The position numbers were made by a program. 36,655 nucleotides of DNA from a virus. Location: the UHGV virus genome UHGV-0180966. One strand, given 5' to 3'. Shown one piece after another: positions 24,001 to 27,000 of the stretch (its first letter is position 1; the number at the start of each line of letters is the position of its first letter).

Positions 24001-27000
24001 ATCTTCGCTCATTCCCGGGCATTGCCAAACGTTCTGATGTGAACGGCGTATCGCGGGGCGTCGAGTACAACATGGCGCAGAATGCTGTTTATCGCGTATG
24101 TGGTGGTAAGCTGTACAAAGGAGAAAGTGAAGTCGGTGACGTCGCCGGAAGTGGTCGCGTATCAATGGCGCATGGTCGAACATCACAGGCGGTAGGCGTT
24201 AACGGGCAACTGGTCGAATACCGCTATGATGGCACGGTTAAAACCGTCTCAAACTGGCCTACAGACAGCGGATTCACGCAATATGAGTTAGGTTCTGTTC
24301 GTGACATTACTCGCTTACGTGGGCGTTATGCGTGGTCAAAAGACGGCACTGATTCATGGTTTATTACTGACCTTGAAGATGAATCGCACCCTGACCGCTA
24401 CAGCGCACAATATCGCGCAGAATCGCAGCCGGACGGAATCATCGGTATCGGGACATGGCGAGACTTCATCGTCTGCTTTGGTTCATCGACTATTGAATAT
24501 TTCTCCCTGACGGGTGCAACCACAGTTGGTGCTGCTTTGTATGTCGCACAGCCATCGCTGATGGTGCAGAAAGGCATTGCCGGGACTTACTGCAAAACGC
24601 CGTTTGCTGATTCTTATGCGTTCATCAGCAATCCGGCAACAGGTGCGCCGTCTGTATACATCATCGGCTCCGGTCAGGTATCACCAATCGCCAGTGCGAG
24701 CATTGAGAAAATCCTCCGCTCCTACACTGCTGATGAACTGGCTGATGGCGTGATGGAATCGTTGCGGTTTGATGCTCATGAGTTGCTGATTATTCACCTG
24801 CCGCGCCATGTTCTTGTTTACGACGCATCTTCAAGCGCTAATGGTCCGCAATGGTGTGTGCTGAAAACAGGCCTGTATGACGATGTGTACCGCGCTATCG
24901 ACTTCATTTACGAAGGCAATCAGATAACGTGCGGCGATAAGCTGGAATCTGTTACCGGGAAATTGCAGTTCGATATATCTTCACAATACGAAAAACAACA
25001 AGAGCATATTTTATATTCCCCTCTAATAAAGGCTGATAACGTTTTAATAAATGACCTTGAATTAGAAACATCTGGTGGCGTGTGTGATAGAATAGATAGA
25101 ATATTTATATCAGCCACTACAGACGGAATTAATTACGGTCATGAGCAAATGGTTGTATTACAAAAACCATTTGTATATGACAATCGCGTTTTATGGCGAA
25201 AAGTTGGTCGAGTTAGACGCCTCATTGGATTTAAATTCAGAGTTATTGCAAAAGGTCCTGTTACATTATCAGGCCTTTCTATTCGTGTAACATAAATCGA
25301 AACTAAAGGAGTAGATATGTTGAGTGAAAACGCAAAAGATATTCCTGGATATGAAGGTTTATATGCCGTAACAGAGGATGGGCGAGTATATTCTCACTCA
25401 CGTGTTGTTAAGGCTGCGCATGGCAGCACGCAACTCAGAAAGGGGCGCTGGTTAAAACAACACGAGAATAATAAAGGTTATCTATATTTGCCACTTAGTG
25501 TTGATGGAGTTAAAGTAAAATGGCTTGTGCATAGACTTGTCGCTCTTGCTTTCATCCCCAATCCAGAAGGCAAGCCGTTCATAAATCACATAGATAACAA
25601 CCGAAAAAATAATAATGCTTCTAATTTAGAGTGGTGTACTCAAAAGGAGAATATGAAGCATTGCTCATCTCAAGGCAGGGTGAAGTTTCCGGCTTTAAAA
25701 GGAGAAAATAATCCAATTTCAAAGCTCTCATATGAGCAAGTAATAGAAATAAAGAAATCAAAGGGAGTTAATCAAAGAGAGCTTGCTAAAAAATACTGTG
25801 TCAGTCAGACGGTGATTCACAATATCCAGTCTGGTAAATCGTGGAGGCATGTTAATGGCTGATTCGAATCTCAATACACCTGTCGCGGTTCAGGCTACGC
25901 GCCTTGATGCTTCAATTTTGCCACGCAATATATTTAGCCAGTCTTACCTGCTGTATGTCATAAATCAAGGTGCTGATGTCGGCGCAATTGCCGGGAAGGC
26001 AAATCAGGCTGGTCAGGGCGCTTACGATGCTCAGATGAAAAACGATGAACAGGACGTCGAGCTGGCAGATCACGATGCAAGAATCACCGCAAACACAAAA
26101 GCGATAAATCTCCTTGAGGTCAGGTTAACAACCGCCGAAGGGAAGATAGTCGTACTACGTAGCGATGTTGATTACTTGCTGGATGAGGTTATCGATATTC
26201 AGGCGCATCTGGTCACTGTTGACCAAAGACTGGATGGCGTAGAAAGCGATGTATCTGACATTAAGAGTGATTACGTATCGAAAACCGTAACCGAATCGCA
26301 GTCTCTTGCGTCACCGCTGGATGTAAAAACATCATATTCAGTTGATGGAATTCAGGTTATTGGAGCAAGAAATACCGGATGGACTGCAGCCACAGGTACA
26401 CCTCTTCTTGGCTCATTCAACGCTAACCAGTCATACACAGTCGGCACTACGTACACACAATCCGAAGTAGCAGCACTCGCTACAGGTTTGCAGCAGGCGC
26501 GGCAGCGTATTCTGGCGCTTGAAACGGCACTTAGATTACATGGGCTGATTGACTGATGATTACATTCAAACCAACGCGAAACATCGACCTGATAGAAGCC
26601 GTAGGAAATCACCCTGACATTATCGCCGGGAGCAACAACGGTGATGGATACGACTACAAACCTGAATGCCGTTACTTTGAGGTTAACGTGCACGGGCAGT
26701 TCGGCGGAATTGTTTACTATCAGGAGATTCAGCCGCTGACCTTTGATTGCCACGCCATGTACCTGCCAGAGATTCGCGGATTCAGCAAGGAAATCGGGCT
26801 GGCGTTCTGGCGATACATTCTGACTAACACCACCGTTCAGTGCGTCACATCGTTCGCTGCACGCAAATTCCGCCACGGGCAGATGTACTGCGCAATGATT
26901 GGCCTTAAGCGTGTAGGAACCATCAAGAAATACTTCAAAGGCGTGGATGACGTGACGTTTTACAGCGCAACACGCGAAGAACTAATCGACTTCCTGAATC

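What the first reader, a model, noticed from the sequence alone, without database searches (positions are those of the whole stretch)
25317..25862. Free-standing HNH homing endonuclease inserted between tail genes 10 and 26
P22 has gene 26 directly after gene 10. Here a 181-aa NUMOD4/HNH endonuclease with AT-rich codon usage is wedged between them, overlapping the gene 26 start. The last ~100 codons of gene 10 are also AT-rich and more divergent from P22 than the rest of the protein, consistent with co-conversion of flanking sequence during endonuclease homing.
Basis: partly seen in the sequence, partly recalled or inferred. Interest (0 to 1): 0.45.

Follow-up and report, generated by a model that had tools for sequence, protein, structure and literature searches.

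The report
Mobile HNH endonuclease cassette in P22-like phage
A selfish DNA-cutting enzyme gene sits between two tail genes of a P22-like phage and always travels with a foreign, AT-rich replacement for the end of the neighbouring essential gene; this is a clear but ordinary example of a homing endonuclease gene in a phage.

Summary
ORF 25317-25862 encodes a 181-aa NUMOD4 + HNH_3 protein. Its only significant structural relative is the nicking homing endonuclease I-HmuI. It lies between gene 10 (23877-25295) and gene 26 (true start 25855), which abut in P22, HK620 and 24 of 24 insert-free IMG/VR loci.

The last 106 codons of gene 10 (24977-25295) are the lowest-GC stretch of the whole window (GC3 0.19 against about 0.60). 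They are 56-58% nt and 63-64% aa identical to insert-free alleles, while the rest of gene 10 is 93-96% nt and 99-100% aa identical.

The proposed refutation fails. The AT-rich tail never occurs without an HNH gene: 52 of 52 complete E. coli genomes, 28 of 28 IMG/VR loci, phage HZ41, a Salmonella contig and four distant lineages. The HNH never occurs with a plain tail.

The roughly 0.9-kb cassette differs at 2 of 922 sites between two backgrounds whose flanks differ by 6.5% and 30%, so it spread recently. The HNH gene is under purifying selection (dN/dS 0.05-0.08).

Cleavage activity and the target site are inferred, not shown. This is a new member of a known kind and of modest interest.

The parts
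23877..25295 (+). Gene 10 (head-closure / packaged-DNA stabilisation protein, 472 aa), a chimera. Nt 23877-24976 are the local E. coli P22-like type. Nt 24977-25295 are the foreign tail.
   Evidence: Pfam PF11134, E = 1e-282. The gene is 1419 nt in all relatives. Identity to insert-free phages is about 95% up to 24956 and then drops to 48-70% per 60-nt window.
24977..25295 (+). AT-rich replacement 3' end of gene 10 (106 codons plus stop). This is the left part of the mobile cassette.
   Evidence: GC 0.34, GC3 0.19. Codons against HK620: 23 identical, 45 synonymous, 38 non-synonymous. Lowest-GC stretch of the window. Strictly linked to an HNH gene. Carriers differ in where the tract starts, at 24977 or at about 25007.
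25296..25316 (+). 21-nt spacer ATCGAAACTAAAGGAGTAGAT carrying the Shine-Dalgarno sequence AAGGAG (25306-25311) for the HNH gene.
   Evidence: Read directly from the sequence. The spacer is nearly invariant in all cassettes, including distant lineages and the upstream-type HNH.
25317..25862 (+). Free-standing HNH endonuclease gene (181 aa). Predicted layout: N-terminal NUMOD4 beta-strands, a beta-beta-alpha-metal HNH core (H91, N103, N112), and a C-terminal three-helix putative DNA-binding domain.
   Evidence: Pfam. Sequence match to I-HmuI (1U3E), E = 2e-12. AlphaFold model with pLDDT 90.2. I-HmuI is the only significant PDB fold match, E = 1.6e-8 over the full length. dN/dS 0.05-0.08.
25842..25854 (+). 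3' end of the HNH gene, which supplies a new Shine-Dalgarno sequence (GGAGG, 25843-25847) for gene 26. This is the right edge of the cassette. The segment is shared by the 181-aa and 177-aa HNH alleles.
   Evidence: Homology to the 177-aa allele resumes at 25842 and homology to insert-free phages at 25853. Junction sequences are compared.
25855..26556 (+). Gene 26 (tail needle), not part of the cassette. Its first 22 nt are the conserved right-hand homology patch. The next ~210 nt of its first ~230 nt are hypervariable among carriers.
   Evidence: 92.8% identical to HK620 from 25853 onwards. Carriers differ by 10-30% in the first 230 nt, beginning at 25876.

Best explanation
Window 24977-25854 is a mobile cassette of about 0.88 kb. 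It consists of a promoter-less, free-standing I-HmuI-like HNH homing endonuclease gene and a foreign, AT-rich replacement for the last 106 codons of the essential tail gene 10.

The cassette sits in the late operon. It has its own ribosome-binding site, and its 3' end supplies a new one for gene 26, so expression of the neighbouring genes is preserved.

Proposed mechanism (inferred):
1. A carrier phage meets an insert-free P22-like phage or prophage in the same cell.
2. The enzyme nicks or cuts the insert-free gene 10 / gene 26 region.
3. The break is repaired by recombination using the carrier genome as template.
4. The carrier tail is only about 57% identical to the plain tail. The left crossover therefore has to fall upstream of about 24977-25007, and the right crossover falls in the 22-nt conserved start of gene 26. 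As a result the tail and the HNH gene are always copied together.

The diverged tail and/or the disrupted 10/26 junction would protect the carrier from cutting itself.

Shown here: the anatomy, the family assignment, the strict two-way linkage, recent horizontal spread, and purifying selection on the enzyme. Inferred: catalytic activity, the position of the target site, and that the enzyme drives the spread.
For: Enzyme:
- NUMOD4 and HNH_3 both score above Pfam cut-offs.
- The best solved relative by sequence and by fold is I-HmuI, from a model with pLDDT 90.
- The catalytic His and Asn positions are conserved across 59 homologues.
- dN/dS is 0.05-0.08.

Insertion:
- Insert-free relatives have genes 10 and 26 abutting (24 of 24 loci).
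- Homology breaks are sharp, at 24977 and 25853.

Linkage:
- 52 of 52 E. coli genomes, tested in both directions.
- 28 of 28 against 0 of 24 IMG/VR loci.
- Also HZ41, Salmonella contig L012, and four distant lineages including Providencia rettgeri.

Recent spread:
- Window against prophage L009: 2 mismatches in 922 nt (24954-25875), while the gene-10 body differs by 6.5% and the start of gene 26 by 30%.
- Carriers of the 177-aa allele: cassette 0.2-1.3% divergent, flanks 5-26%.
- Carrier tails are more uniform (0.94-0.99 column conservation) than plain tails (0.78-0.91).

Multiple events:
- At least three or four left-junction types.
- The cassette occurs with several gene 26 and gene 4 types.

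Frequency and decay:
- The cassette is sporadic: 52 of about 914 E. coli genomes that have a P22-like 10/26 region.
- 3 of 52 copies are disrupted by insertions.

Expression: no terminator and no excess of promoter-like sites, as expected for a promoter-less cassette.

Against: - No biochemical or genetic test of cleavage or of biased inheritance exists for this protein.
- The target site could not be located. No stretch of the plain tail is both outstandingly conserved and specifically altered in carriers.
- There is no conversion tract on the gene 26 side. The right junction is fixed within 22 nt in all carriers. That fits a break at the junction, but it also fits ordinary recombination at a conserved patch.
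- Strict tail-HNH linkage would arise from lack of homology alone, so it does not prove that the enzyme acts.
- The residue equivalent to the I-HmuI metal ligand Asp74 is Asn90. It is invariant in this subfamily, so it is probably functional, but this is untested.
- The donor lineage of the tail was not found.
Confidence: 0.75

Rival explanations
1. Passive mosaic module. The tail and the HNH gene are one more exchangeable block of the mosaic P22-like genomes. The block moves by ordinary homologous recombination between co-resident phages and prophages, at the conserved sequences on either side. The HNH protein plays no part in the transfer; it may be inactive on phage DNA or have another role.
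For: P22-like genomes are highly mosaic: the gene 4 and gene 26 types around the cassette vary independently. Both junctions coincide with the first available homology. Linkage is explained by the 57% identity of the tails. No cleavage data exist.
Against: The cassette is about 30 times less diverged than its immediate flanks in several backgrounds, which points to faster-than-neutral spread. The right crossover occurs within only 22 nt of homology in every carrier. The HNH ORF is intact in 49 of 52 copies and is under strong purifying selection. The same junction has been invaded by an unrelated HNH gene in 683R2, and the other end of gene 10 by a related one. That pattern is typical of HEG hot spots, not of random mosaic joints.
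Confidence: 0.15
2. Phage-beneficial nuclease. The HNH protein mainly serves the phage, and homing is secondary. It might exclude or degrade competing P22-like genomes (marker exclusion), or assist DNA packaging in the way of the terminase-associated HNH proteins of cos phages.
For: Strong purifying selection. Expression from the late operon. Long-term retention at one site across deep lineages. The T4 literature links HEGs with marker exclusion (PMC2988022).
Against: Only about 6% of E. coli P22-like prophages carry it, so it is dispensable. It is flanked by the tail genes 4, 10, 26 and 14, not by terminase or portal genes. Its architecture is NUMOD4-HNH-HTH as in I-HmuI, not the packaging-type HNH. 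Competitor exclusion is mechanistically the same act as homing, so this is only partly a rival.
Confidence: 0.07
3. The AT-rich tail is an independent structural variant of the gp10 C-terminus, for example one adapted to a particular needle or tailspike. On this view its adjacency to the HNH gene is coincidental.
For: 38 of 106 residues differ from plain tails. The tail class is conserved as a protein (within-class dN/dS about 0.06-0.13).
Against: The same tail occurs with at least three very different gene 26 5' ends and needle types. Linkage to an HNH gene is perfect in 80 or more carriers and absent in all plain loci. The tail is compositionally foreign in every background, including hosts with 53-57% GC.
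Confidence: 0.03

Closest known systems
I-HmuI (Bacillus phage SPO1; PDB 1U3E), a group I intron-encoded HNH homing endonuclease that nicks one strand
   Same: Same size (174 against 181 aa) and same domain order: N-terminal beta-strand DNA-binding region (NUMOD4), HNH core, C-terminal helical DNA-binding domain. It is the only significant sequence and fold match in the PDB. The catalytic His and both Asn residues are conserved.
   Different: 27% identity only. The window gene is free-standing between two genes, not inside an intron. The Asp74 metal ligand is replaced by Asn90. The target (a tail-gene junction) is unrelated to the DNA polymerase gene targeted by I-HmuI. Nicking activity has not been tested.
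Free-standing T4-type homing endonucleases (mobA-E, segA-G), which move by 'intronless homing'
   Same: An intergenic, promoter-less cassette within a polycistronic operon of conserved genes. Sporadic distribution among relatives. Flanking sequence moves with the gene. Different HEGs can occupy the same site, as SegH and Hef replace mobC and mobE (PMC2988022). All of these features are seen here.
   Different: The host is a temperate P22-like podovirus and its prophages, not a virulent T-even phage. The linked flank here is a deeply diverged (57% nt), compositionally foreign allele that stays attached across many lineages, not a short tract of polymorphisms. Mobility has not been shown experimentally.
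HEGs at boundaries of genetic exchange and 'HEG islands' (Barth, Dunham and Seed 2023; PMC10055350)
   Same: HEGs sit next to essential structural genes, distinct HEGs occur at one locus, domains are shuffled between HEGs, and essential genes are bracketed by HEGs. Here three or four HNH types occupy the two borders of gene 10. One prophage (L010) has gene 10 bracketed by two HNH genes. The HNH alleles share 5' and 3' segments while their cores are swapped.
   Different: That study dealt mainly with T5orf172 and IPA-HNH genes in ICP1 and other lytic phages, and with islands larger than 10 kb. Here the unit is a cassette of about 0.9 kb that includes part of the essential gene itself.

Membership tests
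HNH (beta-beta-alpha-metal) endonucleases, I-HmuI-like NUMOD4-HNH_3 subfamily | HNH_3 domain scoring above the curated threshold | tested here: met
   PF13392: 39.3 bits against a cut-off of 24.8, residues 70-113.
HNH (beta-beta-alpha-metal) endonucleases, I-HmuI-like NUMOD4-HNH_3 subfamily | N-terminal NUMOD4 module | tested here: met
   PF07463: 44.1 bits against a cut-off of 23.4, residues 7-60.
HNH (beta-beta-alpha-metal) endonucleases, I-HmuI-like NUMOD4-HNH_3 subfamily | Catalytic general-base His and the structural and metal-binding Asn residues are present | tested here: met
   H91, N103 and N112 align with I-HmuI H75, N87 and N96. N90, H91 and N103 are invariant and N112 is at least 90% conserved in 59 homologues. 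I-HmuI D74 corresponds to N90.
HNH (beta-beta-alpha-metal) endonucleases, I-HmuI-like NUMOD4-HNH_3 subfamily | Overall fold like I-HmuI | tested here: met
   AlphaFold model with pLDDT 90.2. Foldseek against the PDB: 1U3E is the only hit below E = 1e-3 (E = 1.6e-8, probability 1.00, 183 aligned columns, TM 0.51-0.53).
HNH (beta-beta-alpha-metal) endonucleases, I-HmuI-like NUMOD4-HNH_3 subfamily | C-terminal helix-turn-helix DNA-binding domain | tested here: inconclusive
   HTH_3 scores 17.3 bits, below its cut-off of 23. The model has three helices at 139-172, and weak HTH hits appear in PDB searches.
HNH (beta-beta-alpha-metal) endonucleases, I-HmuI-like NUMOD4-HNH_3 subfamily | Site-specific nicking or cleavage of DNA | not testable with these tools
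   Requires purified protein and substrates.
Free-standing homing endonuclease genes (intronless homing) | Located between conserved genes, not within an intron or intein | tested here: met
   Lies between the gene 10 stop (25295) and the gene 26 start (25855) and has its own SD. Both flanking ORFs are full length.
Free-standing homing endonuclease genes (intronless homing) | Presence/absence polymorphism among close relatives, with precise boundaries | tested here: met
   52 of about 914 E. coli genomes with the region carry it. In the IMG/VR sample, 28 loci carry it and 24 have the empty site. Boundaries at 24977 and 25853.
Free-standing homing endonuclease genes (intronless homing) | Flanking sequence is transferred with the gene, and the carrier allele differs from the target allele | tested here: met
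   The tail is strictly linked to the gene and is 56-58% nt identical to plain alleles. Left endpoints vary.
Free-standing homing endonuclease genes (intronless homing) | Evidence of recent horizontal spread relative to the host genome | tested here: met
   2 mismatches in 922 nt against 6.5% and 30% divergence in the flanks.
Free-standing homing endonuclease genes (intronless homing) | Endonuclease-dependent over-inheritance in mixed infection, and cleavage of the insert-free allele | not testable with these tools
   Requires phage crosses and cleavage assays.
Terminase-associated packaging HNH proteins (HK97 gp74 type) | Gene adjacent to terminase or portal genes of a cos-packaging phage, and conserved in all relatives | tested here: not met
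   The neighbours are gp4, gp10, gp26 and gp14. The gene is absent from most relatives.

The most novel reading that the evidence does not exclude
The AT-rich gene-10 tail may not be a passive conversion scar. It could be an integral 'replacement and immunity' module of a composite mobile element that has persisted across deeply diverged P22-like lineages in E. coli, Salmonella, Providencia and others.

On this reading, different HNH cores (at least three alleles, 49-57% identical) are swapped into the element through a conserved 5' handle (the spacer plus the first 84-140 nt) and a conserved 3' handle (the last 21 nt).

A mirror-image cassette exists at the 5' end of gene 10. It consists of a remnant of gene 10 nt 1-92, an HNH gene, and a recoded first ~118 nt of gene 10. 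Together the two cassettes would make gene 10 a HEG-bracketed island whose exchange between phages is driven by nucleases.
Probability: 0.3. Interest if true: 0.5.

Novelty: new member of a known kind. Interest (0 to 1): 0.3.

Why it matters
- It is a clean natural example, in the well-studied P22/HK620 model group, of a free-standing homing endonuclease gene that carries part of an essential virion gene with it. It shows how such elements create mosaic joints inside structural genes.
- Carrier and empty-site phages are available in culture (HZ41; HK620, CurroJimenez), so homing, target-site immunity and conversion-tract length can be tested directly in a temperate podovirus.
- For annotation: gene 26 starts at 25855, and gp10 here is a chimera. 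In phage 683R2, the ORF between genes 10 and 26 labelled 'endolysin' has an HNH-like sequence motif (by eye, not scanned against Pfam), so the label looks wrong.
- It does not open a new category.

Tried and rejected
- Donor lineage of the tail, large protein database. Only fragments came back. The best non-cassette tails were 68% identical or less. An apparent 76% intermediate (P0003, locus L011) turned out to be the same cassette in an error-prone assembly with frameshifts.
- Donor lineage of the tail, species-representative genomes. The only hit was an ordinary 66% Citrobacter tail.
- Insert-free close relatives of the distant carrier L016 among isolated phages. No match, so the linkage could not be tested within that lineage.
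- Target-site prediction from conservation of plain alleles against differences in carriers. No stretch stands out, so this was inconclusive.
- Promoter and terminator scan. Nothing above shuffle expectation, so I rejected the idea of an autonomous transcription unit.
- Packaging-type HNH role. Rejected on gene context and sporadic distribution.
- Literature. I found no report of this junction element. Casjens and Thuman-Commike 2011, the most likely place for a mention, is not held, so prior description there cannot be excluded.
- The first dN/dS run on the tail had a slicing error. It was redone correctly.
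Full report
**What is there**

The window is most of a P22-like (Lederbergvirus) genome of the E. coli HK620/CUS-3 type. Around the finding the ORFs are:
- gene 5 (coat), 21936-23195
- gene 4, 23406-23867
- gene 10, 23877-25295
- a 181-aa ORF, 25317-25862
- gene 26, whose listed ORF starts at 25849
- gene 14, 26556-27011
- gene 7 and the genes after it

The 181-aa ORF matches NUMOD4 (44.1 bits) and HNH_3 (39.3 bits), both above the Pfam cut-offs, plus a sub-threshold HTH_3. GC drops from about 0.50 to 0.33-0.42 between roughly 24,900 and 25,850. The lowest-GC 300-nt stretch of the entire window starts at 24969, inside gene 10.

**The insertion and its edges**

In P22, gene 26 starts 3 nt after gene 10. 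In HK620 and CurroJimenez the two genes overlap by one base, TAATG.

Homology between the window and these insert-free phages runs at about 95% from the start of gene 10 to 24976, collapses, and resumes exactly at 25853 (AATGGCTGATTCG...). The real gene 26 start is therefore ATG 25855 (MADSNLN...), and the HNH stop codon (25860-25862) overlaps it by 8 nt.

Gene 10 is 1419 nt in every relative, so nothing was added to it. Its last 319 nt were replaced. Against HK620, of the 106 tail codons:
- 23 are identical, 45 are synonymous and 38 are non-synonymous
- GC3 is 0.19 against 0.59

For comparison, 326 body codons give 270 identical, 55 synonymous and 1 non-synonymous.

A 21-nt spacer with an AAGGAG ribosome-binding site precedes the HNH gene. 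The last codons of the HNH gene contain a GGAGG that replaces the original ribosome-binding site of gene 26, which in insert-free phages lies in the end of gene 10. No terminator is present, and promoter-like sites are not in excess. The unit is therefore a promoter-less cassette inside the late operon.

**The refutation test**

I looked for it in four collections.

| Collection | Result |
|---|---|
| Phages (50,697 records) | Only HZ41 has the tail, and it has the HNH at 99.4% aa identity |
| Complete E. coli genomes (5,426) | About 914 have a P22-like 10/26 region; 52 have the AT-rich tail; in all 52 the match continues into the HNH 5' end |
| Same genomes, reverse test with two HNH cores | 16 + 36 genomes hit, exactly the same 52 |
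| IMG/VR viral contigs | Tail identity is bimodal (88-100% or 63-70%); 28 of 28 high-identity loci have an HNH gene; 24 of 24 low-identity loci have gene 26 abutting gene 10 |

The IMG/VR association has Fisher P = 2e-15. A Salmonella contig (L012) and an error-prone metagenome contig (L011) show the same arrangement. The refuting observation was not found.

**Evidence that the cassette moves**

Between the window and prophage L009 (E. coli MMC-J-0105):
- the gene-10 body differs at 6.5% of sites, almost all synonymous
- the first 230 nt of gene 26 differ at 30%
- the 922 nt from 24954 to 25875 differ at only 2 positions

At the flank rate about 60 differences would be expected. By my own Poisson estimate the chance of 2 or fewer is about 1e-23.

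The same contrast holds among three carriers of a second HNH allele: the cassette is 0.2-1.3% divergent and the flanks 5-26%. Carrier tails are also more uniform than plain tails.

The left edge of the tract is not fixed. In the window and many prophages the AT-type sequence begins at 24977. In HZ41, SCU-124 and others it begins at about 25007. Further mixed patterns exist. The cassette occurs with different gene 4 types and with at least three gene 26 types. Three of the 52 E. coli copies are disrupted by IS or other insertions.

Together this is the population signature of a selfish element that spreads faster than its hosts diverge and occasionally decays.

**The enzyme**

- The best solved relative by sequence is I-HmuI (1U3E, E = 2e-12).
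- An AlphaFold model built from 59 homologues has mean pLDDT 90.2.
- The model's only significant PDB match is again I-HmuI, over the full length (E = 1.6e-8).
- H91, N103 and N112 align with the I-HmuI catalytic His75 and with Asn87 and Asn96. Asp74 is replaced by Asn90, which is invariant in this subfamily.
- dN/dS is 0.08 against the Salmonella copy and 0.05 against an 84%-identical orthologue, so the protein is maintained by selection.

I-HmuI is a strand-specific nicking enzyme, and T4 MobA and MobE also nick (established knowledge; PMC2988022). A nick is the most likely chemistry here, but it is untested.

**An old partnership**

HNH orthologues at 84%, 75%, 68% (Providencia rettgeri) and 61% identity all lie at the same gene 10/26 junction, after the same conserved spacer.

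In these lineages the gp10 body is only 78-80% aa identical to the window's (53% in Providencia). The tail, however, is 83-84% (69%) identical to the window tail and only 62-66% identical to the HK620 tail. In three of the lineages (L016/L017, L018, L020) it is also AT-rich against a 53-57% GC body; in Providencia (L014) tail and body GC are about equal.

Between the two tail classes dN is 0.30-0.39. Within a class it is 0.05-0.18. In L016, L018 and L020 the between-class tail distance is about twice the body distance. The tail is therefore foreign to its gene body wherever it can be tested, and it has accompanied this HNH lineage for a long time. Its ultimate donor was not found.

At least three HNH alleles are attached to the same tail in E. 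coli phages: the 181-aa allele, a 177-aa allele (49% identical), and a third 181-aa allele (57% identical). The first two share the spacer, the first 84 nt and the last 21 nt at about 95% nt identity while their cores are unrelated at the DNA level.

**How it most likely works**

The anatomy fits intronless homing as described for T4 seg and mob genes (PMC2988022). The enzyme breaks the insert-free allele, and repair copies the HEG with whatever lies between the flanking homologies.

Two placements of the target fit the data:
- **(A) The uninterrupted 10/26 junction.** This explains why the right crossover always lies within the first 22 nt of gene 26, and why the left crossover lies at the first homology beyond the non-homologous tail.
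- **(B) Inside the plain tail.** The foreign tail would then act as the immune allele.

I could not discriminate between them. The variants whose tract begins at about 25007 show that the first ~30 nt of the tail are dispensable.

**Rivals**

- Passive mosaic exchange would explain the linkage and the junction positions. It would not easily explain the ~30-fold lower divergence of the cassette, the purifying selection, or the repeated invasion of gene 10's two borders by HNH genes.
- A packaging role is contradicted by gene context and by the sporadic distribution.
- A structural adaptation of gp10 is contradicted by the variety of gene 26 partners.

**Comparison and novelty**

This is a free-standing I-HmuI-like HNH homing endonuclease gene with a linked flank. 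The kind is known (T4 mob/seg genes; HEGs at exchange boundaries, PMC10055350). The protein is already in RefSeq as 'NUMOD4 domain-containing protein'.

I found no paper describing this junction element in P22-like phages. The key comparative paper is not held.

The somewhat unusual points are:
- the depth and permanence of the linked gene fragment
- the swapping of HNH cores within one cassette
- the mirror-image cassette at the other end of gene 10

I rate it as a new member of a known kind, with interest 0.3.

Noticed in passing
window 1475-1891 (minus strand): A second HNH-family ORF in the window: 138 aa, Pfam HNH_3 (E = 9.5e-8) and zf-His_Me_endon (E = 1.3e-6). It lies in another AT-rich island next to the cI-like repressor (2111-2509, Peptidase_S24). 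It may be another homing endonuclease gene in the early region.
   Followed up: no
L004 (Escherichia phage vB_EcoP-683R2) 2922-3416: A different 164-aa ORF sits at the same gene 10/26 junction, next to a plain-type tail, and is annotated 'endolysin'. By eye it carries an HNH-like motif (...DHINGDRTDNRFSNLRL...) and has no resemblance to the window's HNH. I did not run Pfam or a pairwise comparison on it, so calling it an unrelated HNH endonuclease is provisional. Its 3' end repeats the last ~14 nt of gene 10 (AGGATTGAGTAATG), which preserves the gene 26 ribosome-binding site. If confirmed, it is an independent invasion of the same site.
   Followed up: partly
L003 (Salmonella phage UPF_BP1) 1500-2300; L010 (E. 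coli 30602_1#64) 1-800: A mirror-image cassette at the 5' end of gene 10. A 194-aa HNH gene lies between genes 4 and 10. It is preceded by a remnant of gene 10 nt 1-92 and followed by a gene 10 whose first ~118 nt are recoded (60% identity, AT-rich third positions). This HNH shares the spacer and the first ~140 nt with the window's HNH. 16 E. coli genomes match its N-terminal segment. In L010, gene 10 is bracketed by HNH genes on both sides.
   Followed up: partly
L006/L007/L010 2118-2651; L045-L047 about 1843-2385: HNH allele swapping. A 177-aa allele (WP_000947776, 36 E. coli genomes) and a third 181-aa allele (57% identical) are attached to the same tail. The 177-aa and 181-aa alleles share about 95% nt identity over the spacer, the first 84 nt and the last 21 nt, while their cores are unalignable at the DNA level.
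   Followed up: partly
window 25876-26084 (gene 26 5' region): Beyond a conserved 22-nt patch, the first ~230 nt of gene 26 are hypervariable among otherwise close phages (10-30% differences). Whole-gene needle types also differ, for example the 'tail needle knob' type in L009.
   Followed up: no
L039 1501-1830; L031 1821-2628; E. coli ETEC6333/6334 and M160133: Variants of the cassette. L039 has an in-frame 9-nt duplication in the tail (DRIDRIDRIF). L031 has about 0.8 kb and ETEC6333/6334 about 1.3 kb inserted between the gene 10 stop and the HNH core. M160133 has an IS1 in the HNH gene.
   Followed up: no
window 30953-31591 and 31719-32375 (minus strand): Two AT-rich minus-strand ORFs (212 and 218 aa) with no Pfam match. 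They lie between the 608-aa ORF 29105-30931 (no Pfam match; at the position of the ejection genes) and the ant-like gene (32824-33555) and tailspike gene (33617-35071). By position they are probably accessory or superinfection-exclusion genes of the immI region.
   Followed up: no
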